Shown: positions 10,596-64,000 of the stretch, one piece after another | Layout: each line of letters begins with the position of its first letter | Numbering within the stretch: position 1 is the first letter of the stretch | DNA from: Trypanosoma brucei | Taxonomy: Eukaryota | Direction: 5' to 3' | NCBI GenBank assembly: GCA_000002445.1 | Contig: CM000208.1 | Coordinates: forward strand, 2,016,001-2,080,000 | DNA: 64,000 nt | Program-made: the position numbers and the translations under genes | Notes under the pieces: model-generated | What the model was told of the DNA's origin: nothing | What the model saw: the letters and a program-made list of their open reading frames with translations, nothing else | The model's database searches: none

Positions 10596-10666
10596 AGGTG
10601 TTGTTAAGTCATGGATTTCTGTACAAGAGCTCGTACAACAGCAAGGAACGCCTCTTCAAAGTGCGC

Positions 10667-10702
10667 AAAACAACAACAACAATGATAATATTAATAATAA
10701 TA
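10667..10702. repeat. Short (CAA)n followed by (TAA/ATA)n microsatellite in the intergenic region upstream of the 9774-10595 gene
   Basis: caacaacaacaacaatgataatattaataataataac read directly. Confidence 0.8.
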
Positions 10703-10787
10703 ACGGTGGAGACACTACAGTCTCGCAAACAATAAACGCAAGTCTACACTAAGCAATAACGAGATACCCAACACGCTACTGGTTGCC

Positions 10788-11354: not shown

Positions 11355-11568
11355 ACCATCTAAATAATACTGGTCGGTGTATCAAGCATATAAAACAGAA
11401 AAAAAAAAAGAAAAAACAGTATAAACGTAGGACAAAACTAGGATTTACAACAACTCACACAACTAACTCCAAGCAAGGATTTTTTTCCTCTCCACCAAAA
11501 AAGTATTAAAAATATAGGGAATCCTCAGATGATTGACAAAAAATTTATAACTTAAGTGATTGCTTTAC

Positions 11569-46871: not shown

Positions 46872-49800
46872 ATGGAGGGCTGCGCCCATCCGTTAACAAG
46901 CCAGCTACAGCCCATTTTCAGCGAATTACATTCTGGGAAGTTGGCGACGCTGTCATCTACTATTTCGAAGCTGGAAAACGTTCTTAAGGACCAAGGTGAC
47001 GGCTTCTTCCAAAGTAACTCCGAATGTCAGTCCAGGGAGGCCAACTTGAGACTTTCGGTTTGGATTAGCTCCCAAATAGGACAGCTTTTTAGGAGACCAG
47101 AGACTCAACGTGCCGCGATATTGTGTGTCAAAACGCTCCTAGATGTGGAGTATGAGGCCATCAACAACTTGGACCAGACGTTTCTTAGGCTTCTGGAAGA
47201 CTCTGTGAAGTGTGCTGACATGAGCGTCTCGAGGATGGCTGCAGAGGTGTGGGGACTCTGGCTGAACAATAGTGGCACTTCTACCGAAGGAATTGCACAG
47301 TCCAGACTGAAAATTTGTTTTGCCGATCTTCGGGAATCGGACAAAGTAATGGATAAGGTTGCTGCGTGCCTGTTTCTTGAGGAGCTCCTTAAGCGCACCC
47401 CGTCGACTGTTGCACCGTTGCTCGACGTCGTTGCCGAATGTCTTCATCCGGCAGTTCTTAGTTCCTCGGATCTCGTTCAGGCAAGCGCGGCAACAGCTCT
47501 GCGGTACGTTCTGTTGCTTATGTATACATCGATGAATCCGAGTGGAATCAAAAAGTGGTATGAAACATTTTTAAGTGCTTCGCTTGATGCTCTGAGATCA
47601 GGTGCCCCTGAGCGCCGCACTGGTGCCATTCGTTGCTTCAACGCTGTTATGTCATCCGTCACGAGCAATGTCTCTGCGTGCGACACGGCTGTGACTTTTT
47701 CAGAAACATCGGTTGCTCACGTTCATGAGATATGGGAATATGTCAGTGAGCAAGTGACGCTCACCAGCACGCTGGAGCTGAGGCGGGAGCTTCTACAGTC
47801 GTTAACTATACTTGCACTGTATGACACTGAGGCGTTTAAGAGGATGTCTATTGCAAAAGTTGTGGAAGCGGCTTCTGGTGTCTTCCAGACGCCGACAGAA
47901 AAAGATTTGGAGCCGTTAGTGTTCCAAACCCTGGGAAAGCTCGCAGGAGTTATGCCAGATCAAATAGTCACATTTCTTGGTTGTTCAATGCGTCATATTG
48001 AAGAGGTACTGAAACAAGGGAGGCATGATGCGTGCGGTTTGGGGGCCATTGCGTGTGTTGCTGCGTTCGCAGAAGTGAATCCCAGGGCGGTGCGACCGTA
48101 CCTGCGGCAGATTCTTGCACCCATTCTTTCCGGGTCGCTTACTGTTGACTTTGCGAAGGGCGTTGCCCGCATTTGTGCGGCGTTTCCCGAACTGCGGTCC
48201 ACATGCCTGTCGAAGATATTGGAGGTAGCAAAGAAACAACTGCGAGACGACCGGTGTAACGCAGGCGGCGCGGGTGCTTTGTGCGATGGAGGAGTCAGTC
48301 CCGCAGCACAGATTCTCAGCGCTCTAAGTAATCTCGAGTTTGCTGGGTATCCTACTTTGCCCTTTCTGTGTGACACGGCCGTTGCTTACGTTTCGGTCCC
48401 TAACGGAGAGGTTCGACGTGCCGCAATAAAGCTTTGCTTTAAGCTTGTGTTATCTGGTTGTCTAGGCCCGCAGTCGCCTTGTAGGCAAACTTCTGATGGT
48501 GTTGTCATACATAGCGGCTGTGAGCATACTCAACTTTTCAACAAAGTAATCAAAAAACTGGTGAACGCTGCGGTAGCAGACCCGGAGAGTGACATCAGAC
48601 TTGACACTTTGAGAAACTTTACGGAGGAATTTGACCATACGCTTGCTCTCCGTGATGTTGTGAGGTCTCTGTTTCCTGCCTTGCATGACAAACACCAGAA
48701 CAGATTGGCGGTTGTCCGTCTTCTTGGTCGGGTGTCGCGTAGGAACCCAGCACATGTTTATCCTATGCTAAGGAGAATTATGGTGCAGTGTGTGACCGAA
48801 ATGCAATACTTCGAGCATGCGAAGAAGCAAGAGCAGGCCTTTTCCGTGCTGGGTGCCATAATTGAATCTGCGCCTGGCTTGGGTAAGCCTTATATATCGT
48901 CCTTGCTCAACATGTGTGCAGCAAGACTGAGCGATGGGACGCGGGAAGCGGACGTCTGCGCAGCTTTGCTGTCATGTGTGGGGAAACTCGTCCGTTATGC
49001 TGAAGGTGACGACATTCGCGTTTGTGCTCGAATACGACCCATCGTTGTTCAACACATCTTAGATTCGTCACATTTACCGAAGAAAAGGGAGGCGCTACGT
49101 GCTCTCGGTGATATCGTTCGTACGACAAAGGACGTTAACGTTTACGAGGACCACGCAGAACTCCTTCCTGTGCTCCTTCAAGCATTGCACGGTGGATTTA
49201 AAGAACTGTGGCCTGTCAGGAAAGATGTGCTTCAGTTAATGGGGATAATTGGTGCTGTTGACCCTGTTCGGGTAAAGGAAATCCTCCGGGGGTCTCGTGT
49301 TAACAATAATACGAAATTGGTACCTTTCCTTCCGTTTGAGGGTGAAGATACCATTGCCCAGACGGTTGTGCGGAGCGTCTTGCATATTCTTTCTCTTCCG
49401 TCACTAACAGAGGATCAAAGTGTGGCTGCTGTGCAGGTTATCGTTGGCATTTTTTCACTGGAGGTGCTTTCCCCCGGCTGTCTTGTTTCGTTCTACGGTG
49501 AGGTGATTTCTTCCATCCAAAAGCAAGCTCGAGTACAAGTGCGCAAACGGGAGGAAATTTTGGTGCACCTCATCTCACTTGTTCGCATTCTGAAGGGACA
49601 TCTTCGCCCTCATCTTAAGGAAATCACATCTACTGTTGATTCCTTCATTTCTGCCACCGACCTGTCCGTTCTGAGGCAGGTTTTAGCGTTGCTAAAGGAG
49701 CTGTGCTGCTCTCTTCGTGAGGAGTTTCGACCGTATATGTCGTCTCTCCTCGGTCCAATAATAGTCCTTGTGGAAGAAAATGTGGAGGAAACCAGTGAAA

Positions 49801-52800
49801 TTGTGCTTGACTTCTTCTCGGCTATGGGTTCCCTATTGGAGGACCACCTCCATACCGTCTTGCCGGTCGTGTGCAACATCATTGTAGATACTTCTGTGCC
49901 ATCTAGGTGTCGGATTGTTGCGGTGAAAACACTCATTTGCTTTACGAAGAGGCTACCTGATCTCTGTTTCCACGCCTCCCGCTGCGTGCACTGTCTGTGC
50001 CGTGTGCTAAGGGAATCCGACGGCGGAGATGGGGTGGGCGATGAGGGGAGACTGGGGTTTTCCGCGATGGAGGCCTTGTGCACACTCGCGGGAAGTTTGG
50101 GGAAGAACTTCGAAAACTTTGTCCTGGTCGTTTTACCGGCGGTAGCAGACCGCTACGGGGAGACAAGCGGGGAGTACTGTCGCTTTTGCCATGATATTTA
50201 TGAGGCCATCGATGGAAAGAGGGCCCCTGAAGTTTCATCGAACGGCGTGGGCAAAGCTGGTGGCGGTGGTGCACCTTCGCTTCCTTTCACCGCAGGGACG
50301 AGCGCATCACCGTTAAAGGATCGTGCCGACGCATACGCTTCTCTCCGGTTTCACCTCCGGAAGCGGGACCAGGCTAGTGACGAAGATTGGAACCATTGGC
50401 TACCGCAGCTTGCAGTGAACTTGCTGCGATCAAGCTCGTCTCCTTCACATGGCCGTGCTCTGACTCTTGCCGAACTGCATGAGCCCTTTGCACGACAGAT
50501 GCTGCACTCCGCTTTTGCCGCTTGCTATGCCGACATGGATGAACATACACAACGTGAGGTGGTTGGGTTACTCACTGAGGTTTTGCGCGGGCTGCGGGTA
50601 CCCAGTGAGGTTATGCAAGAGCTACTCAACCTGTCGGAGCATATGGAGCGTCAGGGGATTCGTCTAAGCGCCGGCGGGAAGGCAAGCATAAAGCATTCCT
50701 CTAACTTTTGCCCTTTCGACCGCCAAGTTCTTATGGAGAGTAGTGCAAATTGCAATTTGTACTCCAAGGCACTACATTACGCTGAGATCGAATTTTTTGA
50801 GACGGTTCGCGAGTACGAGCGGAGTATTCTTCGAGGTTGCCCAAAGCCTCTTCCTGTTAAGGATTGGCAGAATCTTATAAAACTCTGTGAGAAAAGTATC
50901 TACTTCTGTAACCTTCTTGGACAGCGAGAGAGCGCAAATGGCATACTTAAATTCATTCGGCAGAATCTACCGTTATTAACAGGGAAAAAAGTGACAGAGC
51001 TGTCCCAAATGATGGATGCGCACCTCTTTGACAAGCTGCGGTGGTGGTCGCAAAGCCTGCAGGCATACGAGCGGCGCTTACAGCAGGAACCAAACAAGGT
51101 TTCCAACATGGTTGGTTTACTAAGGGCACTCGATGCCTTAGGTGAGTACCCGCGCGTGTTGGAAATGTGGAGGCAGTTCTCTAAGCGAGTCAGCAAAAGA
51201 GAAGTCTCCAAATTGGCGTCGATGGGCGCCCACGCGGCTTGGCTCCTGAGACGTTGGGACGATATGGAACACATCACGAGTTTTATGTCTGACGAAGACT
51301 ACACAGGGACAACCGCTCTTTTCTATAAGGCTACGCTAGCAGCGCGTAAAAAAAGGTTCCGTGAGGCGGAGAAGTTGATCGACATGTGCCGCAAGCGCGT
51401 CGACTCCAAGCTGTCCGCTCTTGTTGCGGAGAGCTACGATCGTGCATATGACCTTTTCGTCGGCATTCAACAGTTGAGTGAGCTGGAAGAGCTTGCGATG
51501 GCCACTAGTGATCCACAGAGCGCCATGCATTGGAGGCAACTGTGGGAGCGCCGACTGTCCGTAATGGCTTACGAGGGGTGGCCCGGCACGCTAGCGAATC
51601 ATACCCTTTTGGTGCCTCCATCAAGTGAGATCGATATGTGGTTGCGTTTTGTTAGTTTGAGCCGTGCACATGGTCAAGGGAGTGTCTCCACTGAAGTTTT
51701 ACGCGAGTTACTTGGCAACCAATCTATAGAGTCTGCTATAGAAAACGGAATACCGACTCCCGCTGTTGCAATGGGATCATTTCAACACCTCTATGAAACG
51801 AACCAGAGGGACTCAGCGATTGCAAGACTGCAGCTGTACGTGAGCAAGGTGGAGGGCTCTGGAGCACAGCACGTCAGTAGGGAACGAGAGGATATGGCCG
51901 TTTGTCACGCCAAATTGGCGGAGTGGTTGGTTCATCAAAAGAAGGCACATCGTACGGAGGACGAATTGCAAAAAATTTTTCATCACCTCCGTCGCGCCAC
52001 TGAGTTGGACAAAAGCAACGGCTCGATTTGGCGCACGTTAGCGCGTGTACACCGTGAGGCGGCTACCAAACCCGCTGACGGATCCGACTCCTCGGGTGCA
52101 AGTGGCCACATCATGGAGGCCCTCAGTGCCTATTTGCGGAGTGTGTCCCTCTCCGAGGAACTAGAAGATGCCCTTGGGTTTCTTTCCCTTTGGTTCATGT
52201 ATGGACCTCTTCTGGCTGTGCAGGTGGGCTCGACCCTCAAGGAGGAAATTGAGGAGGTTAACCCGACTGTGTGGCTCAAAGTGATTCCGCAGATCATAGC
52301 GCGTATATCTTCACCCAACGGTACCGTAGCGGATTCTGTTTATAATCTTCTCGTGTTGGTCGCAAGAAGGCATCCGCAAGCCATTCTCTACAGCCTGAAC
52401 GTCGCCCACTCAAGTTATCAGGGGAAGGGTACGGCAGACGGTGTGGAGCCCTTGAAGGGTTCTCATCGAGTACTTGCTCGAATTGCGGAGATTCACCAGA
52501 ACGGTAAGGCGATGGTCGAAGACTCCGCACTTGTTTGCCGTGAGTTGGTTCGCTGCGCTGTGCTCTGGCCCGAGCTGTGGATCAACGAACTAGGGAGAGC
52601 TTTATACCAGTGGGAAAGACAAAGAAGCGCAGAGAATCTCTTGTTGGCGATGGGACCGTTACTGGAACAGCTCAAGAGACCTGAGACAATGGCGGAGGCG
52701 CAGTTTGCTGCGGAGCTCAGGCAACCACTCGAGAATGCATGCTGCCATGTTGAGAGGGCTGTTTCTTCTCGCCATGAACAATTTATGGAGGAGGCACGAC

Positions 52801-54170
52801 GTATTTTTGTTTCTATAGAGAGAAGAATACGTGAACAGATTAGTGGAATGTCATCGTTGGCATTGCAGTTGGTAAGCCCTAAACTGCACCAAAACGGGAG
52901 AAACTTGTCATTGGTTGTGCCAGGTCAGTACAGGGAGGACGGAAACTATCCCCTGATTGCTTCCTTTCAGAATGTTCTGAAGGTGCTTAACTCAAAACAG
53001 CGGCCTCGGCGTATTTACATCAACGGGTCGAATGGCGAGATCTACAAGTTCTTGCTGAAGGGTCATGAGGATCTACGTTTGGATGAAAGGGTTATGCAGT
53101 TACTTGGGTTTGTCAACACTATTCTTGAGAAGCATTCGGTTGCAAAGCGCCATGACTGCCTTATCCAGACGTACTCAGTCACCCCTCTTAGCGATAATGC
53201 TGGACTGGTAGGTTGGGTGGACCACTGCGACACACTGAACAAAATCATTGAGGATTATAGAGTGAATCCCAGGTGTATTAGGATGGAGCTTGACCTTATG
53301 AGAAGTATGTGTGACAATCTGTACTATCTTACCGCCATTCAACGTGTGGAGCCGTTTGAGTTTGCGTTGGAGCGAACTGAGGGAGTGGATCTCGTTCGCT
53401 CCTTCTGGGTGAAAGCTCCCAGCGCGGAGACGTGGCTTGAGAGGAGGACGACATACGTTTGCTCACTCGCCACCATGTCTATGGTGGGGCATATATTAGG
53501 ACTGGGTGACCGTCACCCTTCAAACCTTATGATACACGCATTTAGCGGGAGAGTGGTGCACATTGACTTCGGCGACTGCTTTGAAGTGGCGCAGCAGCGA
53601 AGCATTCACCCTGAAAAGGTACCGTTTCGACTTACTCGTATGTTGGTTAAGGCAATGGAAATGGGGGGAATAGAAGGTCTCTTTCGGCATGGGTGTCACA
53701 CAGTGATGAATGTTTTGCGTGAAGAGGGTGGTAGTCTCTTAGCATTACTTGAGGCATTTGTTCACGACCCCTTGGTGTCTTGGTGGCGTGATGAGGCTGA
53801 GGGTTTTAGTGGGAACGGCCAAGCCGCTTCATCGGTACAAACAATCTCGGTTATAGGCTCCATGACGAACGTTGCTGAGGAGGACAGCGTGGGGAGTCTG
53901 CAGTTGTCACAGTTGTCGGTGCAACGGCGAGCAACCACTCAGCAGCGCGTGAATGCCAACATCGAAAAGGACACTAGTCAGACTCGCAAACCTAAAAGTG
54001 TCGTCAAACGTATTAAAAGGAAGTTAAGGGGTCTGGAGTTTCCTCAATCACAGGAGGGTAAGGGCAGCGATGGTTTTACAGTGGAGGAACAAGTGTCGAG
54101 GTTGATTGAAGAAGCAACTTCTAACGAAAACCTTTGCGTTCACTTCCTCGGGTGGTGCCCTTTCTGGTAG
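46872..54170 (+). CDS. TOR1: Target of rapamycin (TOR) phosphatidylinositol-3-kinase-related kinase: HEAT/FAT, FRB-like region, PI3K catalytic domain, FATC (2432 aa from MEGCAHP)
   Basis: Catalytic loop GLGDRHPSNLMI and activation segment HIDFGDCFE. Tail LCVHFLGWCPFW* (canonical FATC). Long HEAT-repeat N-terminus. Length from the second Met (2432 aa) matches my recollection of TbTOR1 on chr10. The track ORF begins 16 codons earlier (MFRVGG...). Confidence 0.9.
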   Translation: MEGCAHPLTSQLQPIFSELHSGKLATLSSTISKLENVLKDQGDGFFQSNSECQSREANLRLSVWISSQIGQLFRRPETQRAAILCVKTLLDVEYEAINNLDQTFLRLLEDSVKCADMSVSRMAAEVWGLWLNNSGTSTEGIAQSRLKICFADLRESDKVMDKVAACLFLEELLKRTPSTVAPLLDVVAECLHPAVLSSSDLVQASAATALRYVLLLMYTSMNPSGIKKWYETFLSASLDALRSGAPERRTGAIRCFNAVMSSVTSNVSACDTAVTFSETSVAHVHEIWEYVSEQVTLTSTLELRRELLQSLTILALYDTEAFKRMSIAKVVEAASGVFQTPTEKDLEPLVFQTLGKLAGVMPDQIVTFLGCSMRHIEEVLKQGRHDACGLGAIACVAAFAEVNPRAVRPYLRQILAPILSGSLTVDFAKGVARICAAFPELRSTCLSKILEVAKKQLRDDRCNAGGAGALCDGGVSPAAQILSALSNLEFAGYPTLPFLCDTAVAYVSVPNGEVRRAAIKLCFKLVLSGCLGPQSPCRQTSDGVVIHSGCEHTQLFNKVIKKLVNAAVADPESDIRLDTLRNFTEEFDHTLALRDVVRSLFPALHDKHQNRLAVVRLLGRVSRRNPAHVYPMLRRIMVQCVTEMQYFEHAKKQEQAFSVLGAIIESAPGLGKPYISSLLNMCAARLSDGTREADVCAALLSCVGKLVRYAEGDDIRVCARIRPIVVQHILDSSHLPKKREALRALGDIVRTTKDVNVYEDHAELLPVLLQALHGGFKELWPVRKDVLQLMGIIGAVDPVRVKEILRGSRVNNNTKLVPFLPFEGEDTIAQTVVRSVLHILSLPSLTEDQSVAAVQVIVGIFSLEVLSPGCLVSFYGEVISSIQKQARVQVRKREEILVHLISLVRILKGHLRPHLKEITSTVDSFISATDLSVLRQVLALLKELCCSLREEFRPYMSSLLGPIIVLVEENVEETSEIVLDFFSAMGSLLEDHLHTVLPVVCNIIVDTSVPSRCRIVAVKTLICFTKRLPDLCFHASRCVHCLCRVLRESDGGDGVGDEGRLGFSAMEALCTLAGSLGKNFENFVLVVLPAVADRYGETSGEYCRFCHDIYEAIDGKRAPEVSSNGVGKAGGGGAPSLPFTAGTSASPLKDRADAYASLRFHLRKRDQASDEDWNHWLPQLAVNLLRSSSSPSHGRALTLAELHEPFARQMLHSAFAACYADMDEHTQREVVGLLTEVLRGLRVPSEVMQELLNLSEHMERQGIRLSAGGKASIKHSSNFCPFDRQVLMESSANCNLYSKALHYAEIEFFETVREYERSILRGCPKPLPVKDWQNLIKLCEKSIYFCNLLGQRESANGILKFIRQNLPLLTGKKVTELSQMMDAHLFDKLRWWSQSLQAYERRLQQEPNKVSNMVGLLRALDALGEYPRVLEMWRQFSKRVSKREVSKLASMGAHAAWLLRRWDDMEHITSFMSDEDYTGTTALFYKATLAARKKRFREAEKLIDMCRKRVDSKLSALVAESYDRAYDLFVGIQQLSELEELAMATSDPQSAMHWRQLWERRLSVMAYEGWPGTLANHTLLVPPSSEIDMWLRFVSLSRAHGQGSVSTEVLRELLGNQSIESAIENGIPTPAVAMGSFQHLYETNQRDSAIARLQLYVSKVEGSGAQHVSREREDMAVCHAKLAEWLVHQKKAHRTEDELQKIFHHLRRATELDKSNGSIWRTLARVHREAATKPADGSDSSGASGHIMEALSAYLRSVSLSEELEDALGFLSLWFMYGPLLAVQVGSTLKEEIEEVNPTVWLKVIPQIIARISSPNGTVADSVYNLLVLVARRHPQAILYSLNVAHSSYQGKGTADGVEPLKGSHRVLARIAEIHQNGKAMVEDSALVCRELVRCAVLWPELWINELGRALYQWERQRSAENLLLAMGPLLEQLKRPETMAEAQFAAELRQPLENACCHVERAVSSRHEQFMEEARRIFVSIERRIREQISGMSSLALQLVSPKLHQNGRNLSLVVPGQYREDGNYPLIASFQNVLKVLNSKQRPRRIYINGSNGEIYKFLLKGHEDLRLDERVMQLLGFVNTILEKHSVAKRHDCLIQTYSVTPLSDNAGLVGWVDHCDTLNKIIEDYRVNPRCIRMELDLMRSMCDNLYYLTAIQRVEPFEFALERTEGVDLVRSFWVKAPSAETWLERRTTYVCSLATMSMVGHILGLGDRHPSNLMIHAFSGRVVHIDFGDCFEVAQQRSIHPEKVPFRLTRMLVKAMEMGGIEGLFRHGCHTVMNVLREEGGSLLALLEAFVHDPLVSWWRDEAEGFSGNGQAASSVQTISVIGSMTNVAEEDSVGSLQLSQLSVQRRATTQQRVNANIEKDTSQTRKPKSVVKRIKRKLRGLEFPQSQEGKGSDGFTVEEQVSRLIEEATSNENLCVHFLGWCPFW

Positions 54171-54975: not shown

Positions 54976-55404
54976 ATGGCTGACGAGAATCAGGTTGAAA
55001 AACAGGTGGAACCAACGCCTGTCGTGGAGGTGATTGATGTGGAGCCCGACACACTGCAAGACGCGATTCGCATCGTCATACGTAAGGCGCTCGAGGTAAA
55101 CGGACTTGTCCGCGGCCTTTCTGAGGTTGCTCGGGCGTTGGACCGCCGCACCGCGCACATGTGTATTCTCGCTACGGACTGTGACGATGAAGAGTACAAG
55201 AAGCTGATCAAGGCGCTTGCTCTTCAGGCGAGCATTGACATTATTGAGGTCGATTCTCGAGAGGAGCTGGCCGAGTGGGCGGGGCTGCAGAGGCGTAAAC
55301 AAGATGAAACCGTCAAAACCTTCAAATGCTCATGTGTTGCCATACGCGACTTTGGGGAGCGGACGAAGGCCCTCGATATGCTTTTGAACAAGCTGTCCCA
55401 CTAG
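54976..55404 (+). CDS. RPS12: 40S ribosomal protein S12 (L7Ae fold), 142 aa from MADENQ
   Basis: DAIRIVIRKALEVNGLVRGLSEVARALDRRTAHMCILATDCDDEEYKKLIKAL...FKCSCVAIRDFGERTKALDML aligns block-for-block with eukaryotic RPS12 ([34 protein letters not shown]...GCSCVVVKDYGKES). Confidence 0.85.
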   Translation: MADENQVEKQVEPTPVVEVIDVEPDTLQDAIRIVIRKALEVNGLVRGLSEVARALDRRTAHMCILATDCDDEEYKKLIKALALQASIDIIEVDSREELAEWAGLQRRKQDETVKTFKCSCVAIRDFGERTKALDMLLNKLSH

Positions 55405-56418: not shown

Positions 56419-58002
56419 ATGACTGAGCGTCGTGATAACGTTTCCCACGCACCTGATGCCATCGAGGGCCCAAACGATGGTGCTCACGCCGAGGACACAT
56501 CGCCGGGTTTCTTCTCATTCGAAAATCTTGGTGTGGCGCAGGTACAAGTCGTCGGAGGAACTCTGAACGGATATGTTATTGGGTATGTTGCTGTGTATTT
56601 GCTGCTGTACCTGACGGCAACTGAGTGCAAATTTACTACGGAGGGTGCATGTGGCGGAGCTAAGATATATGGGTGCAAATGGAGCGGCACGACATGCAAA
56701 TTCGAGAATCCCAAATGTAGTGAAGGCTCCGATCCTTCCGATTCTTGCAAAAACGAGGTGGCCTACACGTCTGTTTACAGCGGTATCTTTGCCTGCGCCA
56801 TGATCGTTGGTTCAATGGTTGGGTCGATTATAGCCGGGAAGTGCATCACTACGTTTGGACTGAAGAAATCATTCATCATTGTCTCAGTCACCTGTACTAT
56901 AGCTTGTGTTGTGGTGCAGGTAGCGATTGAGTACAATAATTACTACGCACTGTGCACTGGACGAGTGCTCATAGGTCTCGGCGTTGGTATTTTATGCTCT
57001 GTTTGCCCCATGTATGTGAATGAGAACGCACATCCCAAACTCTGCAAGATGGACGGTGTGTTGTTTCAGGTGTTCACAACACTTGGCATTATGCTTGCCG
57101 CGATGCTGGGTCTGATTTTGGACAAAACAGGAGCTAGTAAAGAAGAGGCAAACATGGCTGGGCGGTTACACGTTTTTTCAGCGGTACCGCTTGGATTGTC
57201 CGTCGCCATGTTCCTAGTGGGCATGTTCCTCCGCGAAAGCACTGCAACATTTTCCCAAGACGATGATGGTAAGGCTGATGGCGGAATGGACCCCAACGAG
57301 TATGGCTGGGGGCAGATGTTGTGGCCACTGTTCATGGGCGCTGTAACCGCTGGTACGCTGCAACTGACTGGGATCAACGCGGTAATGAACTATGCGCCGA
57401 AGATTACAGAGAACCTCGGAATGGATCCATCACTTGGCAACTTTCTGGTTATGGCATGGAATTTTGTGACATCCCTTGCGGCTATTCCACTTGCGTCACG
57501 CTTTACGATGCGTCAAATGTTTATCACCTGTTCCTTTGTTGCGTCATGTATGTGCTTGTTCCTATGTGGAATCCCAGTGTTCCCCGGTGTTGCTGAAGAA
57601 AAGGTGAAGAATGGTGTGGCAACTACTGGTATCGCCCTGTTCATAGCTGCATTTGAGTTTGGTGTTGGGTCGTGCTTCTTCGTGCTTGCACAGGACCTTT
57701 TCCCACCATCATTCCGACCTAAGGGCGGTTCGTTTGTTGTCATGATGCAGTTTATCTTTAACATCCTTATTAACCTATTGTATCCCATTACAACCGAAGC
57801 TATATCTGGTGGGCCAACTGCCAACCAGGACAAGGGACAGGCCGTTGCATTCATACTGTTTGGTTTAATTGGCTTGATTTGTTCGGTTCTGCAGTTCTTT
57901 TACTTGTATCCATATGATGCCAATCAGGACCATGAGAATGACCATGGTGGTGAGCCTGTGGAACAGAAGACATATCCCGTTGAAGCATCTCCGCGGAACT
58001 AA
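56419..58002 (+). CDS. THT1: Hexose transporter, THT1-type (527 aa, MFS sugar porter)
   Basis: MTERRDNVSHAPDAIEGPNDGAHAEDTSPGFFSFENLGVAQVQVVGGTLNGYVIGYVAVYLLLY... 527 aa with the Cys-rich first exofacial loop ECKFTTEGACGGAKIYGCKWSGTTCKFENPKCSEG. Matches T. brucei THT1 as recalled. 12-TM sugar-porter layout. Confidence 0.9.
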   Translation: MTERRDNVSHAPDAIEGPNDGAHAEDTSPGFFSFENLGVAQVQVVGGTLNGYVIGYVAVYLLLYLTATECKFTTEGACGGAKIYGCKWSGTTCKFENPKCSEGSDPSDSCKNEVAYTSVYSGIFACAMIVGSMVGSIIAGKCITTFGLKKSFIIVSVTCTIACVVVQVAIEYNNYYALCTGRVLIGLGVGILCSVCPMYVNENAHPKLCKMDGVLFQVFTTLGIMLAAMLGLILDKTGASKEEANMAGRLHVFSAVPLGLSVAMFLVGMFLRESTATFSQDDDGKADGGMDPNEYGWGQMLWPLFMGAVTAGTLQLTGINAVMNYAPKITENLGMDPSLGNFLVMAWNFVTSLAAIPLASRFTMRQMFITCSFVASCMCLFLCGIPVFPGVAEEKVKNGVATTGIALFIAAFEFGVGSCFFVLAQDLFPPSFRPKGGSFVVMMQFIFNILINLLYPITTEAISGGPTANQDKGQAVAFILFGLIGLICSVLQFFYLYPYDANQDHENDHGGEPVEQKTYPVEASPRN

Positions 58003-58807
58003 AGCACTGAAGCTTAATTCATCTGGTGAGGTATTGTTTGTCTCGCCCGCATGACTCATGTGCTGGGGAAGTGTAAAAGGGGGGATGGCGACGAAGTTGT
58101 TTCTTGCATATTTCTCGCGCATCTGATGAATTAAAAAAAAAACGATTATTGCATAACATGATTATCTGACCACAAAACGTTTTGTAGTTTGAAGGAGGTA
58201 ATTGGGTAATGTTTTAGAGGTCGTCAATATTAGTGGCGTTAATGAAAACGGATTTTAAAATTTACTTCTTTTTGCTGTTTTATGTTGTCTATATATACTT
58301 TTGTTTTTCCATCAAGTCGACTGTGCCTATTATTATCTGCTCCGTTTTGTAGCAGCGGATGGACAGATGGATGAAGTGATATATGAGGGCAGTATGCTGT
58401 TAGTGTGTATGTGCACTCTAAAGCTGCTGCTGTGTCGGGATAGTGATTTACGTAGGGCAGTTGATTTTTCTTTTTTCTTTTTTTTTGTAATATTATACAA
58501 TTGAAGACGTTTCTTAATATTTTTTTGAAAAAAAAACATTGTGTTGTTTTTTATTGGTGTACAGGGGACAACTCGTTTTATTAAAACCCTTTGTCGTTGG
58601 GCTGTGCCCCAATTCTGGCGTCACGCGATGTTCTTCTATAATGATCTCTTACTTTACCCGTAACACCACATTAATGGTTTATTTCACTTTTTTGGTTGAT
58701 TTTGTTTGGATTGCTGCCGCCACATTACGTCTCCCTTCCATATTGTTTTATTATTGTCAGTTACGCAATCAGGCAAACTCATATAAATTGTCCAGTGACC
58801 CAAAACA

Positions 58808-60394
58808 ATGACTGAGCGTCGTGATAACGTTTCCCACGCACCTGATGCCATCGAGGGCCCAAACGATGGTGCTCACGCCGAGGACACATCACCGGGTTTC
58901 TTCTCATTCGAGAATCTTGGTGTGGCGCAAGTACAAGTCGTCGGAGGAACTCTGAACGGATATGTTATTGGGTATGTTGCTGTGTATTTGCTGCTGTACC
59001 TGACGGCAACTGAGTGCAAATTTACTACGGAGGTTGCATGTGGCGGAGCTAAGATATATGGGTGCAAATGGAGCGGCACGACATGCAAATTCGAGAATCC
59101 CAAATGTAGTGAAGGCTCCGATCCTTCCGATTCTTGCAAAAACGAGGTGGCCTACACGTCTGTTTACAGCGGTATCTTTGCCTGCGCCATGATCGTTGGT
59201 TCAATGGTTGGGTCGATTATAGCCGGGAAGTGCATCACTACGTTTGGACTGAAGAAATCATTTATCATTGTCTCAATCACTTGTACTATAGCTTGTGTTG
59301 TGGTGCAGGTAGCGATTGAGTACAATAATTACTACGCACTGTGCACTGGACGAGTGCTCATAGGTCTCGGCGTTGGTATTTTATGCTCTGTTTGCCCCAT
59401 GTATGTGAATGAGAACGCACATCCCAAACTCTGCAAGATGGACGGTGTGTTGTTTCAGGTGTTCACAACACTTGGCATTATGCTTGCCGCGATGCTGGGT
59501 CTGATTTTGGACAAAACAGGAGCTAGTAAAGAAGAGGCAAACATGGCTGGGCGGTTACACGTTTTTTCAGCGGTACCGCTTGGATTGTCCGTCGCCATGT
59601 TCCTAGTGGGCATGTTCCTCCGCGAAAGCACTGCAACATTTTCCCAAGACGATGATGGTAAGGCTGATGGCGGAATGGACCCCAACGAGTATGGCTGGGG
59701 GCAGATGTTGTGGCCACTGTTCATGGGCGCTGTAACCGCTGGTACGCTGCAGCTGACTGGGATCAACGCGGTAATGAACTATGCGCCGAAGATTACAGAG
59801 AACCTCGGAATGGATCCATCACTTGGCAACTTTCTGGTTATGGCATGGAATTTTGTGACATCCCTTGTGGCTATTCCACTTGCGTCACGCTTTACGATGC
59901 GTCAAATGTTTATCACCTGTTCCTTTGTTGCGTCATGTATGTGCTTGTTCCTATGTGGAATCCCAGTGTTCCCCGGTGTTGCTGAAGAAAAGGTGAAGAA
60001 TGGTGTGGCAACTACTGGTATCGCCCTGTTCATAGCTGCATTTGAGTTTGGTGTTGGGTCGTGCTTCTTCGTGCTTGCACAGGACCTTTTCCCACCATCA
60101 TTCCGACCTAAGGGCTCTTCGTTTGTTGTCATGATGCAGTTTATCTTTAACATCCTTATTAACCTATTGTATCCCATTACAACCGAAGCTATATCTGGTG
60201 GGCCAACCGGCGACCAGGATAAGGGACAGGCCGTTGTATTCATACTGTTTGGTTTAATTGGCTTGATTTGTTTCGTTCTGCAGTTCTTTTACTTGTATCC
60301 ATATGATGCCAATCAGGACCATGAGAATGACCATGGCACTGAGCCCGTGGAACGTATTGCTTCTCCCGTTGATGTCCCCACGCCGCGGAACTAA
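58808..60394 (+). CDS. THT1: Hexose transporter, chimeric: THT1-type N-terminal ~two-thirds, THT2-type C-terminal ~100 aa and 3' flank (528 aa)
   Basis: N-terminus and loop identical to the first copy except E/V (EVACGG) and V/I (VSITCT). From about residue 430 onward it matches the third copy (KGSSFVV, PTGDQDKGQAVVFILF...CFVLQ, ...HGTEPVERIASPVDVPTPRN). Its 3' flank after ggatggcgacg continues taaccgatattgttagagggcgggaattcc as in copy 3, not aagttgtttcttgcatatttc as in copy 1. Confidence 0.85.
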   Translation: MTERRDNVSHAPDAIEGPNDGAHAEDTSPGFFSFENLGVAQVQVVGGTLNGYVIGYVAVYLLLYLTATECKFTTEVACGGAKIYGCKWSGTTCKFENPKCSEGSDPSDSCKNEVAYTSVYSGIFACAMIVGSMVGSIIAGKCITTFGLKKSFIIVSITCTIACVVVQVAIEYNNYYALCTGRVLIGLGVGILCSVCPMYVNENAHPKLCKMDGVLFQVFTTLGIMLAAMLGLILDKTGASKEEANMAGRLHVFSAVPLGLSVAMFLVGMFLRESTATFSQDDDGKADGGMDPNEYGWGQMLWPLFMGAVTAGTLQLTGINAVMNYAPKITENLGMDPSLGNFLVMAWNFVTSLVAIPLASRFTMRQMFITCSFVASCMCLFLCGIPVFPGVAEEKVKNGVATTGIALFIAAFEFGVGSCFFVLAQDLFPPSFRPKGSSFVVMMQFIFNILINLLYPITTEAISGGPTGDQDKGQAVVFILFGLIGLICFVLQFFYLYPYDANQDHENDHGTEPVERIASPVDVPTPRN

Positions 60395-61369
60395 AGCACT
60401 GAAGCTTAATTCATCTGGTGAGGTATTGTTTGTCTCGCCCGCATGACTCATGTGCTGGGGAAGTGTAAAAGGGGGGATGGCGACGTAACCGATATTGTTA
60501 GAGGGCGGGAATTCCCCTCGATGTTTACGTTGTGAGGTAAATAAAACAGGATTTCTGTTGGGCCTTTGGATTTGACATTTTAAGGTTATCTCCCATGTCC
60601 CTATTTTAACGAGGCAGCAATCGCTATAGTGTATCTGATGTACCAATTGATGAGGCTGACCGTTTGTTTTTCCAGACTGTGGTTAGAATTGTAACTTGAT
60701 TCCATATTGTTTTAATGAGCGTACGGATTATGCCTTAGCGGATATTACTGTTATTTTTCTTTTAACTGAGCGAGTTAATTTACTGATTCTATTTCTTTGT
60801 AATTTAAAAGTTCGTTAATACCACGCTCTTTTCGATTATATTATCGATCACTTTGTTCTCTTTCATTTTGTCGACCTATGAATATTCTTGGTTTTCTGTC
60901 TTGTTGCACGGCAATAGATGGACAGATGGATGAAGTGATATATGAGGGCAGTATGCTGTTAGTGTGTATGTGCACTCTAAAGCTGCTGCTGTGTCGGGAT
61001 AGTGATTTACGTAGGGCAGTTGATTTTTCTTTTTTCTTTTTTTTTTTTGTAATATTATACAATTGAAGACGTTTCTTAATAGTTTTTTGAAAAAAAAACA
61101 TTGTGTTGTTTTTTATTGGTGTACAGGGGACAACTTGTTTTATTAAAACCCTTTGTCGTTGGGCTGTGCCCCAATTCTGGCGTCACGCGATGTTCTTCTA
61201 TAATGATCTCTTACTTTACCCGTAACACCACATTAATGGTTTATTTCACTTTTTTGGTTGATTTTGTTTGGATTGCTGCTGCCACATTACGTCTCCCTTC
61301 CATATTGTTTTATTATTGTCAGTTACGCAATCAGGCAAACTCATATAAATTGTCCAGTGACCCAAAACA

Positions 61370-62959
61370 ATGACTGAGCGTCGTGATAACGTTTCCCACG
61401 CACCTGATGCCATCGAGGGCCCAAACGATGGTGCTCACGCCGAGGACACATCACCGGGTTTTTTCTCACTCGAGAATCTTGGTGTGGCGCAGGTACAAGT
61501 CGTCGGAGGAACTCTGAACGGATTTTCCATCGGCTTTGTTGCTGTGTACATCCTTCTCTATGAAGTGGCGACGAATTGTTCATTATTCAAGACTACGGAA
61601 GCGTGCAAGGCCGTGGGTTCTTATGGATGTGAGTGGAAGGATACGGAAGTGTGCTCATGGAAGAAGGAATGTGACTCCGATTCCGATGGTGTCAATCCAT
61701 GCGAAAGCCTTATTGGGTACAGCTCGCTTTACAGCGGTATCTTTGCTTCTGCCATGATCGTTGGTTCAATGGTTGGGTCGATTATAGCCGGGAAGTGCAT
61801 CACTATGTTTGGACTGAAGAAATCATTCATCATTGTTGGCGTCATGAGTGTTGTGGCGTCTGCACTGAACCACATATCCGTGGCAACGAATGAGTTTTGG
61901 GTTCTATGCGCTGGACGAGTGCTCATGGGTATCGGTCTCGGCGTTGTTTGCGTTATTTGCCCCATGTATGTGAATGAGAACGCACATCCCAAACTCTCTA
62001 AGGTGGACGGTGTGTTGTTTCAGGTGTTCATCACGTTTGGGATTATGCTTGCCGCGATGCTGGGTCTGATTTTGGACAAAACGGTTAACTATGATAATGA
62101 CCCCGACATGGCTGGGCGTTTTCACGGTTTTTGTGCAGTGTCATCCGTACTCTCCGTCGCCATGTTCCTAGTGGGCATGTTCCTCCGCGAAAGCACTGCA
62201 ACATTTTCCCAAGACGATGATGGTAAGGCTGATGGCGGAATGGACCCCAACGAGTATGGCTGGGGGCAGATGTTGTGGCCACTGTTCATGGGCGCTGTAA
62301 CCGCTGGTACGCTGCAGCTGACTGGGATCAACGCGGTAATGAACTATGCGCCGAAGATTACAGAGAACCTCGGAATGGACCCATCACTTGGCAACTTTCT
62401 GGTTATGGCATGGAATTTTGTGACATCCCTTGCGGCTATTCCACTTGCGTCACGCTTTACGATGCGTCAAATGTTTATCACCTGTTCCTTTGTTGCGTCA
62501 TGTATGTGCTTGTTCCTATGTGGAATCCCAGTGTTCCCCGGTGTTGCTGAAGAAAAGGTGAAGAATGGTGTGGCAACTACTGGTATCGCCCTGTTCATAG
62601 CTGCATTTGAGTTTGGTGTTGGGTCGTGCTTCTTCGTGCTTGCACAGGACCTTTTCCCACCATCATTCCGACCTAAGGGCTCTTCGTTTGTTGTCATGAT
62701 GCAGTTTATCTTTAACATCCTTATTAACCTATTGTATCCCATTACAACCGAAGCTATATCTGGTGGGCCAACCGGCGACCAGGATAAGGGACAGGCCGTT
62801 GTATTCATACTGTTTGGTTTAATTGGCTTGATTTGTTTCGTTCTGCAGTTCTTTTACTTGTATCCATATGATGCCAATCAGGACCATGAGAATGACCATG
62901 GCACTGAGCCCGTGGAACGTATTGCTTCTCCCGTTGATGTCCCCACGCCGCGGAACTAA
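61370..62959 (+). CDS. THT2: Hexose transporter, THT2-type (529 aa)
   Basis: Divergent N-terminal third (NGFSIGFVAVYILLYEVATNCSLFKTTEACKAVGSYGCEWKDTEVCSWKKECDSDSDGVNPCESLIGYSSLY ... VGVMSVVASALNHISVATNEFWVLCAG). From VAMFLVGMFLRESTATF onward nearly identical to THT1. 529 aa, as recalled for THT2. Confidence 0.85.
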   Translation: MTERRDNVSHAPDAIEGPNDGAHAEDTSPGFFSLENLGVAQVQVVGGTLNGFSIGFVAVYILLYEVATNCSLFKTTEACKAVGSYGCEWKDTEVCSWKKECDSDSDGVNPCESLIGYSSLYSGIFASAMIVGSMVGSIIAGKCITMFGLKKSFIIVGVMSVVASALNHISVATNEFWVLCAGRVLMGIGLGVVCVICPMYVNENAHPKLSKVDGVLFQVFITFGIMLAAMLGLILDKTVNYDNDPDMAGRFHGFCAVSSVLSVAMFLVGMFLRESTATFSQDDDGKADGGMDPNEYGWGQMLWPLFMGAVTAGTLQLTGINAVMNYAPKITENLGMDPSLGNFLVMAWNFVTSLAAIPLASRFTMRQMFITCSFVASCMCLFLCGIPVFPGVAEEKVKNGVATTGIALFIAAFEFGVGSCFFVLAQDLFPPSFRPKGSSFVVMMQFIFNILINLLYPITTEAISGGPTGDQDKGQAVVFILFGLIGLICFVLQFFYLYPYDANQDHENDHGTEPVERIASPVDVPTPRN

Positions 62960-63784
62960 AGCACTGAAGCTTAATTCATCTGGTGAGGTATTGTTTGTCT
63001 CGCCCGCATGACTCATGTGCTGGGGAAGTGTAAAAGGGGGGATGGCGACGTAACCGATATTGTTAGAGGGCGGGAATTCCCCTCGATGTTTACGTTGTGA
63101 GGTAAATAAAACAGGATTTCTGTTGGGCCTTTGGATTTGACATTTTAAGGTTATCTCCCATGTCCCTATTTTAACGAGGCAGCAATCGCTATAGTGTATC
63201 TGATGTACCAATTGATGAGGCTGACCGTTGCAGTAAAATATTCCTTTTTTATTATGTGTTGTGGTGGTCACCGTTTTTTTTAATTTATGACGTGTTATCG
63301 CTTTTTTTTGTTTTCGTTCAAGTGAGTGATGCGGGTTGTTAGTGTTACATATTGTCTTTTCTTGTTTTAATTTTGTAATTTCCTTAATTTTATTATTATT
63401 TTATTATTTTTTCGACCTATGAATATTCTTGGTTTTCTGTCTTGTTGCACGGCAATAGATGGACAGATGGATGAAGTGATATATGAGGGCAGTATGCTGT
63501 TAGTGTGTATGTGCACTCTAAAGCTGCTGCTGTGTCGGGATAGTGATTTACGTAGGGCAGTTGATTATCTCCTTATATATTTGTCTTTTTTTAAAGAAGG
63601 TTATGTAAATCATGAAGCGAAAACGGTTTTGTTTTTTGTTGGAGATGTTTATTTTTTAATTTTTTGTTTTTTTTCTCTATTTTGTAACAGTTTTTTATTT
63701 TTATTTTTTTTGGTTTTTGAAGGTGCTTTATTTTCTGTTTTTAAACTTCTTCCTCTTACTTTTTTTTAGTTTTTAGTGGGATTG

Positions 63785-64000
63785 ATGGGTATTGACTACT
63801 ACAAGGTGCTCGGTGTGTCGAGGGACGCCTCGCCAAGCGATATTAAGAAGGCGTATCATCAACTTGCGTTGAAGTACCATCCAGACAAAGCCAGTGGGAA
63901 TCGGGAGGAGGCGGAGCGGCTGTTCAAAGAAGTGGCTGAGGCGTATGATGTGTTGAGCGACGAAAAGAAGAAAAAAATTTATGACTCTTACGGTGAAGAG
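63785..64000 (+). CDS. DnaJ (J-domain) protein, N-terminal fragment. ORF runs off the window end
   Basis: [72 protein letters not shown]. Canonical J domain with HPD tripeptide. Confidence 0.8.

What the first reader, a model, noticed from the sequence alone, without database searches (positions are those of the whole stretch)
58808..60394. Middle hexose-transporter copy is a THT1/THT2 chimera with a THT2-type C-terminus and 3' flank
Copies 1 and 3 of the array differ in two places: the first exofacial loop / N-terminal third, and the extreme C-terminus plus the 3' flank. Copy 2 carries the copy-1 (THT1-type) sequence through about residue 430. From about nt 60110 to the stop and into the downstream flank (taaccgatattgttagagggcgggaattcc...) it is copy-3 (THT2-type). 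So a crossover or gene-conversion boundary lies between about 59890 (the copy-2-specific TSLVAIPLAS substitution) and about 60110 (the first THT2-shared difference, KGSSF). In T. brucei, THT1 (bloodstream, low-affinity) and THT2 (procyclic, high-affinity) arrays are regulated largely through their distinct 3' UTRs. A THT1-like transporter core attached to THT2-like 3' sequence would therefore be predicted to follow a different developmental expression pattern from its neighbours. I believe the reference annotation already lists a distinct 'THT1E' copy at this position, so this may be known. The exact breakpoint and its regulatory consequence still merit a look.
Basis: partly seen in the sequence, partly recalled or inferred. 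Interest (0 to 1): 0.55.

Follow-up and report, generated by a model that had tools for sequence, protein, structure and literature searches.

The report
Known THT1E chimera in collapsed array
The middle glucose-transporter gene really is a THT1 gene with a THT2-type tail, but it is the long-known THT1E gene of Trypanosoma brucei, and the THT2-type sequence after its stop codon probably reflects ten tandem genes collapsed to three in this old assembly.

Summary
The window is T. brucei TREU927 chromosome 10 in its GenBank version. It reads TOR kinase, S12/L7Ae gene, three hexose-transporter genes, DnaJ.

Copy 2 (58808-60394) matches copy 1 at 199 of 203 core diagnostic sites. It matches copy 3 at all 28 differences from 60116 to 60382. 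It is 100% identical to copy 3 over 59869-60664.

Copy 2 is XP_823079, which by its position in the array corresponds to Tb927.10.8450, "glucose transporter 1E". THT1E of strain EATRO 164 (Q09037) has the same THT1 core and THT2 tail, so the chimera is real and already known.

Copies from other subspecies place the left boundary at 59588-59982, not 59890-60110.

The regulatory idea is probably wrong. The 975-nt spacer after copy 2 is the internal THT2-THT2 spacer. The curated Tb927_10_v5 reference has ten genes, and there 8450 is followed by an 805-nt, THT1-length spacer. The window equals v5 minus about 17.4 kb between the 8450 and 8520 tails, and it lacks the conserved THT1-to-THT2 junction spacer.

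The best reading is a 0.4-0.9 kb gene-conversion tract inside a THT1 gene, plus array collapse. Interest is low.

The parts
56419..58002 (+). Copy 1: THT1-type hexose transporter, 527 aa (XP_823078; Tb927.10.8440, 'glucose transporter 1B')
   Evidence: ORF. Exact protein match. Reference for THT1 diagnostic sites. It carries a short THT2-type patch at 59983-59990 (c2 numbering; copy-1 coordinates about 57594-57601) and shares the private C with copy 3 at the 59868-equivalent site.
58003..58807 (+). THT1-THT1 spacer, 805 nt (THT1-type 3' UTR plus the 5' flank of the next gene)
   Evidence: 98.6% identical over its full length to T. b. equiperdum spacers Eig1 and Eig2, which follow THT1 genes.
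58808..60394 (+). Copy 2: the flagged gene, 528 aa, equal to Tb927.10.8450 / THT1E (XP_823079). MFS sugar porter.
   Evidence: ORF. Exact match. PF00083, E = 1.8e-108. Same mosaic as Q09037.
58962..59587 (+). Divergent core block (TM1, cysteine-rich exofacial loop, to TM6). THT1-type in copy 2.
   Evidence: c2 vs c1 99.4%, c2 vs c3 68.0%. 199 of 203 core diagnostic sites are THT1-type.
59588..59982 (+). Interval that holds the left boundary of the THT2-type tract. THT1 and THT2 are identical here apart from private SNPs.
   Evidence: No type-diagnostic site in any of 16 copies from 3 subspecies. 99.5% identity among all three window copies.
59983..60382 (+). THT2-type 3' coding tract: AEEK patch, G437S, TM11-12 changes and the cytosolic C-terminal tail with its extra codon
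   Evidence: 32 type-diagnostic sites, all THT2-type in copy 2. Residue list and hydropathy.
60383..60485 (+). 103 nt identical in all three copies (last 12 nt of the CDS plus 91 nt of flank). Inferred right boundary of the genuine conversion tract, and a possible collapse point of the assembly.
   Evidence: Repeat family D7, 100% in 3 copies. Alignment.
60486..61025 (+). THT2-type 3' UTR sequence (internal THT2-THT2 spacer subtype). Probably belongs to Tb927.10.8520 rather than to THT1E.
   Evidence: 60486-60664 and 60871-61025 are identical to the copy-3 flank. The whole 975-nt spacer is 99.5-99.6% identical to equiperdum THT2-THT2 spacers Eig4/6/7. It is 100% identical over 552 nt to the flank of a THT2 gene in Logan contig L004.
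61026..61369 (+). Polypyrimidine tract and 5' flank common to THT genes
   Evidence: Matches 58467-58807 upstream of copy 2. 25-nt polypyrimidine run at 61024.
61370..62959 (+). Copy 3: THT2-type, 529 aa (XP_823080; Tb927.10.8530, 'glucose transporter 2A'). Last gene of the array.
   Evidence: ORF. Exact match, and same 90% cluster as Q06222 THT2A.
62960..63784 (+). Terminal spacer (THT2 3' UTR, second subtype), running into the DnaJ 5' flank
   Evidence: 97% identical to equiperdum Eig8 and gambiense Gig4 terminal spacers.
63785..64000 (+). Start of the DnaJ gene. It marks the end of the transporter array.
   Evidence: PF00226, E = 1.6e-27. Same neighbour in L001 and L003.

Best explanation
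Copy 2 is THT1E (Tb927.10.8450). It is a THT1-type hexose-transporter gene whose last roughly 400 coding nucleotides were replaced by the THT2 version. The replaced part encodes the region just before TM11, TM11-12 and the cytosolic C-terminal tail.

The replacement arose by gene conversion within the tandem THT1/THT2 array. The left end of the tract lies in the 395-nt stretch 59588-59982, which is identical in both gene types. The right end most likely lies in the 103-nt stretch 60383-60485, which is identical in all copies. That gives a tract of 0.4-0.9 kb.

The further run of THT2 identity through the whole 975-nt downstream spacer is probably not a property of THT1E. The window comes from the 2005 GenBank assembly, in which the ten-gene array is collapsed to three genes. 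The sequence passes from the 8450 tail into the identical 8520 tail and continues with the 8520 spacer and then 8530.

In the real locus THT1E therefore most likely keeps a THT1-type 3' UTR and bloodstream-form regulation. It differs from its neighbours only in its C-terminal protein segment.

Shown here: the mosaic, the known identity, the spacer types and the v5 coordinates.
Inferred: gene conversion as the mechanism, the right-hand boundary, and collapse as the cause of the flank.
For: Mosaic:
- 200 THT1-type sites are followed by an unbroken block of 28 THT2-type sites, P about 5e-33.
- There is a 796-nt perfect run with copy 3.

Known gene:
- The exact protein is XP_823079 of TREU927. Q09037, 'Glucose transporter 1E', is in the same cluster.
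- Alignment A1 shows Q09037 with the same THT1 core plus KGSSF...TGDQ...ICFVL...ERI[LA]SPVDVPTPRN tail.
- Papers name Tb927.10.8450 glucose transporter 1E.

Ongoing exchange:
- Strain-specific tail residues are shared by THT1E and THT2 within a strain. Residue 519 is L in both EATRO 164 proteins and A in both 927 proteins.
- T. b. equiperdum carries mosaic and reciprocal tails in copies E2, E4 and E5.

Collapse:
- Tb927_10_v5 coordinates: 8440 CDS 2093459-2095042; 8460 CDS 2098241-2099824.
- 3' UTR starts in v5: 8450 = 2097436, 8460 = 2099825, 8470 = 2102214, 8480 = 2104603, 8490 = 2107171, 8520 = 2114866.
- The spacer after 8450 is therefore 805 nt, the same as the window's THT1-THT1 spacer. 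A THT2 spacer would be 975 nt.
- The intervals 2389 (x3), 2568 and 2565 (x3) match the window's THT1-type and THT2-type units. They also match the 977-nt junction spacer.
- The window's stop-to-stop distance from copy 1 to copy 3 is 4957 nt. The extrapolated v5 distance is 22388 nt. The difference is one 8450-to-8520 interval (17430 nt), to within 1 nt.
- The THT1-to-THT2 junction spacer is 99.7% conserved between equiperdum and gambiense. Its roughly 370-nt unique middle is absent from the window.
- The window's spacer 2 is the canonical internal THT2 spacer.

Expression:
- The fragment over the 8450 3' UTR is enriched in the positive bloodstream-form reporter screen, like 8440, 8460 and 8470.
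- 8450 mRNA behaves like THT1.
Against: - I could not read the v5.1 sequence itself. The THT1-type nature of the 8450 spacer rests on its length (805 nt) and on the UTR annotation (609 nt versus 814-820 nt for THT2-type).
- Read mapping in a near-identical array is ambiguous, so the reporter-screen and transcriptome data for 8450 are weak.
- THT copy number is reported to be hypervariable (Barrett et al. 1996, as cited in PMC6307712). A genuine short three-gene haplotype is therefore possible, created by unequal crossover between the 8450 and 8520 tails.
- SILAC proteomics reports the 8450 protein group as procyclic-enriched, log2 +3.44 from one peptide. That is what a THT2-type UTR would predict. 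A peptide from the tail, which the THT2 proteins share, explains it equally well.
- T. b. equiperdum E5 shows that a swapped tail can extend about 229 nt into the UTR.
Confidence: 0.72

Rival explanations
1. First reader's reading. Copy 2 is a true crossover product whose THT1 core is physically joined to a complete THT2-type 3' UTR. This could be in the main locus or on a real short-array haplotype made by unequal crossover between the 8450 and 8520 tails. Its mRNA would then follow THT2-like, procyclic regulation.
For: - In the window the THT2 identity runs without a break from 59869 to 60664, and the whole spacer is the THT2-THT2 type.
- Copy number is said to vary between strains.
- The SILAC protein ratio for the 8450 group is procyclic-up, while the mRNA ratio is bloodstream-up.
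- Equiperdum E5 shows that tail-plus-partial-UTR swaps do occur.
Against: - The curated v5 reference places an 805-nt spacer after 8450, followed by four more THT1-length units.
- The window lacks the conserved junction spacer that v5 intervals, equiperdum and gambiense all have.
- The 8450 UTR fragment is positive in bloodstream forms.
- The SILAC THT1 group contains 8440, 8460 and 8470 (listing truncated; 4 members) but not 8450. This fits a peptide from the tail shared with THT2 rather than true regulation.
Confidence: 0.17
2. The whole chimera is an assembly artefact, coding sequence included. On this view no THT1E-type gene exists, and a THT1 gene was merged with a THT2 gene through the identical 59588-60115 stretch.
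For: - A collapse through the identical stretch would produce exactly this structure.
- The gambiense and equiperdum assemblies contain no THT1-core / THT2-tail gene.
Against: - THT1E (Q09037 / CAA48837) was deposited under separate accessions from another strain, and it has the same architecture with strain-specific differences.
- The v5 interval 8440-to-8450 is 2393 nt against 2389 nt for the other THT1 units. This fits a retained 528-aa gene followed by a THT1 spacer.
- The copy 2 core has 6 substitutions relative to copy 1.
Confidence: 0.05
3. No recombination. Copy 2 differs from copy 1 only by scattered point mutations that happen to match copy 3.
For: Three isolated copy 2 = copy 3 sites occur upstream, at 58891, 58912 and 59752.
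Against: - There are 28 consecutive informative sites plus a 3-nt indel, P about 5e-33.
- Two of the upstream sites, 58891 and 59752, are private changes of copy 1; the third, 58912, varies among copies in other strains.
Confidence: 0.01

Closest known systems
THT1E / 'Glucose transporter 1E' of T. b. brucei EATRO 164 (UniProt Q09037, CAA48837; Bringaud & Baltz 1993) = Tb927.10.8450
   Same: 528 aa. THT1-type N-terminal two thirds. THT2-type AEEK patch, S437, GD468-469, V477, F489 and C-terminal ...HGTEPVERI-SPVDVPTPRN with the extra residue. Papers that use the TriTrypDB annotation name Tb927.10.8450 'glucose transporter 1E', and the window's middle gene corresponds to it by position and interval.
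   Different: A few strain-specific residues: E26, R82, F197, A280, A466 and L519 in EATRO 164, and V76 private to the 927 copy. By its name, EATRO 164 THT1E is the fifth of six THT1 genes. In 927 it is the second gene.
Canonical THT1 (Tb927.10.8440, Q06221) and THT2 (Tb927.10.8530, Q06222) of the T. brucei hexose-transporter array
   Same: The same MFS sugar-porter family and the same tandem array. The core of copy 2 equals THT1 and its tail equals THT2.
   Different: Copy 2 fully matches neither type. Kinetic differences between THT1 and THT2 presumably map to the 68%-identical core block, so THT1E is expected to transport like THT1 (inference).
Reciprocal and mosaic THT genes of T. b. equiperdum (RHW68827.1 = E5, and E4, in CM010681.1)
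   Same: Exchange in the same C-terminal module, with boundaries in the same identical stretches.
   Different: Opposite polarity: THT2 core with a THT1 tail. In E5 the THT1-like tract extends about 229 nt into the 3' UTR.
Leishmania LmGT1-3 / Pro-1 glucose-transporter tandem arrays (from my own knowledge, not tested here)
   Same: Syntenic tandem sugar-porter paralogues. They have near-identical blocks kept uniform by gene conversion, isoform-specific termini and stage-specific 3' UTRs.
   Different: Different genus. The isoform differences are concentrated at the cytosolic termini rather than in the exofacial loop and core.

Membership tests
MFS sugar porter (Pfam PF00083 Sugar_tr) | Full-length match to the Sugar_tr profile above the gathering score | tested here: met
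   363.8 bits against a cut-off of 22.3; residues 39-499 cover profile positions 1-450 of 452.
MFS sugar porter (Pfam PF00083 Sugar_tr) | Twelve transmembrane segments | tested here: inconclusive
   A crude Kyte-Doolittle scan finds 11 clear hydrophobic peaks; TM7 is weak. PMC3342237 lists 12 TMS for the orthologues.
THT1 (bloodstream-type hexose transporter) | THT1-type sequence in the divergent core block (58962-59587) | tested here: met
   199 of 203 diagnostic sites are THT1-type. 99.4% identity to copy 1 against 68.0% to copy 3.
THT1 (bloodstream-type hexose transporter) | THT1-type C-terminus (AGKEV, KGGSF, ...EQKTYPVEASPRN; 527 aa) | tested here: not met
   All 32 tail-diagnostic sites from 59983 to 60382 are THT2-type.
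THT1E (Q09037 / Tb927.10.8450) | THT1 core plus THT2 C-terminus in a single 528-aa ORF | tested here: met
   Alignment A1. Exact protein XP_823079, with Q09037 in the same 90% cluster.
THT1E (Q09037 / Tb927.10.8450) | Position inside the THT1 part of the array, followed by a THT1-type spacer (as in Tb927_10_v5) | tested here: not met
   In the window it is followed by the 975-nt THT2-THT2 spacer and the terminal THT2 gene. In v5 the spacer is 805 nt and 8460 follows. I attribute the discrepancy to array collapse in this assembly.
THT2-type 3' UTR (procyclic-type regulation) | THT2-specific 3' flank sequence directly downstream of the gene | tested here: inconclusive
   Met in the window sequence: 99.5% to equiperdum THT2-THT2 spacers and 100% to the L004 flank. 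Contradicted by the spacer length in the curated reference.
THT2-type 3' UTR (procyclic-type regulation) | Procyclic-enriched, bloodstream-repressed expression conferred by the UTR | not testable with these tools
   Only indirect published data exist. The fragment over the 8450 UTR is positive in the bloodstream-form reporter screen. mRNA is bloodstream-up but the protein group is procyclic-up.

The most novel reading that the evidence does not exclude
The C-terminal-tail-plus-proximal-3'-UTR segment of THT genes behaves as an exchangeable module. It is reshuffled between THT1 and THT2 cores in different T. brucei lineages. T. b. brucei 927 and EATRO 164 have a THT1 core with a THT2 tail. T. 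b. equiperdum has a THT2 core with a THT1 tail and a partly THT1-like UTR. On at least one TREU927 haplotype, THT1E may really carry the THT2 3' UTR. A low-affinity THT1-type transporter would then be made in insect stages. That would account for the protein-versus-mRNA discordance reported for Tb927.10.8450.
Probability: 0.13. Interest if true: 0.45.

Novelty: already known. Interest (0 to 1): 0.2.

Why it matters
The consequences are mostly practical.

1. Users of the GenBank TREU927 chromosome 10 record would assign a THT2 3' UTR to THT1E. They would also see a 3-gene array where the curated reference has 10 genes.
2. Tb927.10.8450 has been used as 'the' THT1 gene in 3' UTR motif searches (PMC8982893). 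It also appears among the few genes with opposite protein and mRNA regulation (PMC3344917). Its THT2-type tail means that peptides and reads from that part cannot separate it from THT2. This probably explains the discordance.
3. The array is a clean example of block-wise concerted evolution. Identical stretches act as recombination substrates, and a divergent core is preserved.

None of this changes current understanding of glucose transport or stage regulation.

Tried and rejected
- The primary papers are not held (Bringaud & Baltz 1993, tried by DOI and by PMC358999/PMC359000; the 1994 MBE paper; Hotz 1995). What they say about THT1E could not be quoted.
- Exact-protein look-ups of copy 1 and copy 2 found no contigs on record. 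No independent TREU927 DNA was obtained.
- The supplements of PMC8982893 do not contain the 8450 UTR sequence.
- Searches for 'THT1E', 'glucose transporter 1E' and 'THT1 + gene conversion' found no open-access discussion of the chimera.
- A scan of the three spacers for the RBP10 motif UA(U)6, AU repeats and purine tracts gave no clear THT1/THT2 discriminator. The counts were spacer 1: one site, spacer 2: none, spacer 3: three. I dropped this line.
- The first whole-unit MAFFT alignment was too noisy in the spacers. I replaced it with separate CDS and spacer alignments plus BLAST.
- I considered and rejected chance similarity.
- I considered that the 60665-60870 segment is unique to copy 2. 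It is not. It is the normal internal THT2 spacer subtype.
Full report
**Source and layout of the window**

The three transporter proteins match TREU927 chromosome 10 proteins exactly. They are XP_823078, XP_823079 and XP_823080, on a 4,054,025-bp record.

The 3' end of the window reads as follows:
- a TOR-like kinase, ORF 46824-54170;
- an S12/L7Ae-family gene, 54976-55404;
- copy 1, 56419-58002, 527 aa;
- copy 2, 58808-60394, 528 aa;
- copy 3, 61370-62959, 529 aa;
- the start of a DnaJ gene at 63785.

Copy 2 is a full-length MFS sugar porter (PF00083, E = 1.8e-108).

**Checking the observation**

In a three-way CDS alignment, 200 sites group copies 1 and 2 against copy 3. All of them lie at or before 59815. 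Another 31 sites group copies 2 and 3 against copy 1. Of these, 28 form an unbroken terminal block from 60116 to 60382, which includes a 3-nt insertion. The probability of that arrangement by chance is about 5e-33.

| Segment (c2 coordinates) | c2 vs c1 | c2 vs c3 |
|---|---|---|
| 58962-59587 | 99.4% | 68.0% |
| 59588-60115 | 99.5-100% | 99.5-100% |
| 60116-60394 | 90.0% | 100% |

In 59588-60115 all three copies are 99.5-100% identical to each other. The perfect copy 2 = copy 3 run is 59869-60664, 796 nt.

Downstream of the stop:
- The first 91 nt are identical in all three copies.
- 60486-60664 is shared with copy 3 only.
- 60665-60870 differs from both other copies.
- 60871-61025 again equals copy 3.
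- 61026-61369 equals the 5' flank found upstream of copy 2.

**What the gene is**

UniProt Q09037 is 'Glucose transporter 1E' (THT1E) of strain EATRO 164. It sits in the same 90% cluster as copy 2 and has exactly the same architecture. That architecture is a THT1 N-terminal two thirds, then AEEK, KGSSF, TGDQ, V477, F489 and the tail ...HGTEPVERI-SPVDVPTPRN.

Papers that use TriTrypDB identifiers call Tb927.10.8450 'glucose transporter 1E'.

Within each strain the THT1E tail shares strain-specific residues with that strain's THT2. Residue 519 is L in both EATRO 164 proteins and A in both 927 proteins. This points to continuing concerted evolution of the tail.

**Placing the boundary with other arrays**

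I fetched two further arrays:
- T. b. equiperdum (L001/L002): eight copies, E1-3 with a THT1 core and E4-8 with a THT2 core.
- T. b. gambiense DAL972 (L003): two copies of each type.

Canonical THT1 tails already differ from THT2 tails at 59983/85/87/90 (AGKEV vs AEEKV). Copy 2 is THT2-type there. Copy 1 of this window is also THT2-type there, and it shares a private C at 59868 with copy 3. Copy 1 therefore carries its own short conversion patch.

The left boundary of the THT2 tract in copy 2 therefore lies in 59588-59982, a stretch with no type-specific differences in any of 16 copies.

Equiperdum also has other mosaics:
- E5: THT2 core with a full THT1 tail. This is the reciprocal chimera, RHW68827.1.
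- E4: THT2 core with a patchwork tail.
- E2: THT1 core with a small THT2 patch.

Exchange in this module is thus recurrent.

**The spacers**

BLAST of the spacers shows the following:
- Window spacer 1 (805 nt) is the THT1-THT1 type.
- Window spacer 2 (975 nt, after copy 2) is 99.5-99.6% identical over its whole length to the equiperdum THT2-THT2 spacers. It is also 100% identical over 552 nt to the flank of a THT2 gene in an independent Logan contig.
- Window spacer 3 is the terminal type.
- The real THT1-to-THT2 junction spacer is 99.7% conserved between equiperdum and gambiense (977 nt). It consists of 412 nt of THT1 3' UTR, a roughly 370-nt unique middle and the common 5' flank. That unique middle is absent from the window.

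**Evidence that the array is collapsed here**

Two papers give Tb927_10_v5 coordinates in their supplements:
- CDS of 8440: 2093459-2095042 (527 aa). CDS of 8460: 2098241-2099824 (527 aa).
- 3' UTR starts: 8440 = 2095043, 8450 = 2097436, 8460 = 2099825, 8470 = 2102214, 8480 = 2104603, 8490 = 2107171, 8520 = 2114866.
- 3' UTR lengths: 634, 609, 647, 509, 820, 818 and 814 nt.

From these numbers:
- The spacer after 8450 is 2098241 - 2097435 - 1 = 805 nt. This is the THT1-THT1 length, not 975 nt.
- The interval 8440-to-8450 is 2393 nt. This fits 805/806 + 1587, so the 528-aa gene is retained in v5.
- The next three intervals are 2389 nt (805 + 1584).
- 8480-to-8490 is 2568 nt (junction spacer 977 + 1590).
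- The THT2 intervals are 2565 nt (975 + 1590).

The window's distance from the copy 1 stop to the copy 3 stop is 4957 nt. The extrapolated v5 distance is 22388 nt. The difference equals one 8450-to-8520 interval (17430 nt) to within 1 nt.

The simplest reading is that this older assembly jumps from the THT1E tail into the identical tail of 8520. The segment 60486-61369 would then be the 8520 spacer.

The same result could come from:
- a cloning deletion, or
- a genuine short haplotype made by unequal crossover at that point.

Copy number is reported to be hypervariable, so I keep the short haplotype as a rival at about 0.17.

**Mechanism and consequences**

The best-supported model is a gene-conversion tract of 0.4-0.9 kb. 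Its minimum extent is 59983-60382 and its maximum is 59588-60485. It copied a THT2 tail into one THT1 gene, with both ends in stretches that are identical between the paralogues.

At the protein level the tract changes these features:
- G437S;
- AN468-469GD;
- A477V and S489F in TM12;
- G511T, and residues 516-523 of the cytosolic tail, which also gains one residue.

The divergent core is THT1-type. It includes the cysteine-rich exofacial loop and TM1-6, and it presumably sets transport kinetics. THT1E should therefore transport like THT1 (inference).

With a THT1-length spacer in v5, THT1E should be regulated like THT1. The available data are consistent with this, although they are weakened by multi-mapping:
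- A fragment covering the 8450 3' UTR is enriched in the positive bloodstream-form reporter screen, like its THT1 neighbours.
- 8450 mRNA follows THT1.

One published oddity remains. The 8450 protein group is procyclic-enriched (log2 +3.44, one peptide), while its mRNA is bloodstream-enriched. This is most simply explained by the chimera itself. The SILAC THT1 group lists 8440, 8460 and 8470 (the listing is cut off; the group has four members) but does not list 8450. The peptide that defines the 8450 group is therefore probably from the THT2-type tail, for example IASPVDVPTPR, which in procyclics comes from THT2 proteins.

**Verdict**

The chimera is real, and it is the known THT1E. Its apparent THT2 3' UTR, and hence the predicted regulatory switch, is most likely a consequence of the collapsed array in this assembly.

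Novelty: already known. Interest: low.

Noticed in passing
window 57479-57726 (copy 1; equivalent to c2 59868-60115): Copy 1 is itself a small mosaic. It has the THT2 state at the four AGKEV/AEEKV sites (c2 59983-59990) and shares a 927-private C (A354) with copy 3. From c2 60116 on it returns to THT1-type. This implies a short THT2-derived conversion patch of at least 123 and at most 300 nt in Tb927.10.8440.
   Followed up: partly
window 60665-60870 versus 63230-63412: THT2 3' UTRs come in two subtypes that differ in a central segment of about 200 nt. The 'internal' subtype occurs in window spacer 2, equiperdum Eig4/6/7 and Logan L004. The 'terminal' subtype occurs in window spacer 3, Eig8 and Gig4. 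In T. b. gambiense the terminal subtype also sits in an internal spacer (Gig3), so it is not tied to the last gene.
   Followed up: partly
L001 7442-9027 (E4), 10001-11587 (E5) and spacer 11588-12427: T. b. equiperdum has THT2-core genes with THT1-type or patchwork C-termini. E5 (RHW68827.1) is the reciprocal of THT1E. The first roughly 229 nt of its 3' spacer are THT1-like (91%) and the rest is THT2-like (94%). T. equiperdum is not tsetse-transmitted, so relaxed selection on the procyclic-type genes is one possible reason (speculation).
   Followed up: partly
L001 2503-4136, 7442-9027, 12428-14016, 17550-19138: Every second transporter copy in the equiperdum assembly (E2, E4, E6, E8) is split by single-base deletions, for example at c2-equivalent 59639, 59697 and 60337. 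The regular alternation looks like long-read or polishing error in a tandem array rather than real pseudogenes.
   Followed up: no
L001 6468-7441 and L003 13981-14957: The THT1-to-THT2 junction spacer is 99.7% identical between equiperdum and gambiense. It has a roughly 370-nt middle segment that is found in no other spacer and is absent from this window. Its function, if any, is unknown. Its 820-nt UTR annotation for Tb927.10.8480 suggests that the last THT1 gene has a longer, distinct 3' UTR.
   Followed up: partly
window 54976-55404 (+): A 142-aa L7Ae-family ORF lies between the TOR-like kinase and the transporter array. It is called as PF01248 in the syntenic loci L002 and L003, and is probably ribosomal protein S12.
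   Followed up: no
window 62819-63271 (-): A 150-aa antisense ORF overlaps the 3' end of copy 3 and its flank. It starts with GTG, has no support, and is almost certainly spurious.
   Followed up: no
window 58891-58912 (5' end of the CDS): In the near-identical first 154 nt of the genes, a few polymorphisms (for example F34/L34) are distributed across THT1 and THT2 copies without regard to gene type, in all three subspecies. This is consistent with gene conversion homogenising the 5' block as well.
   Followed up: no
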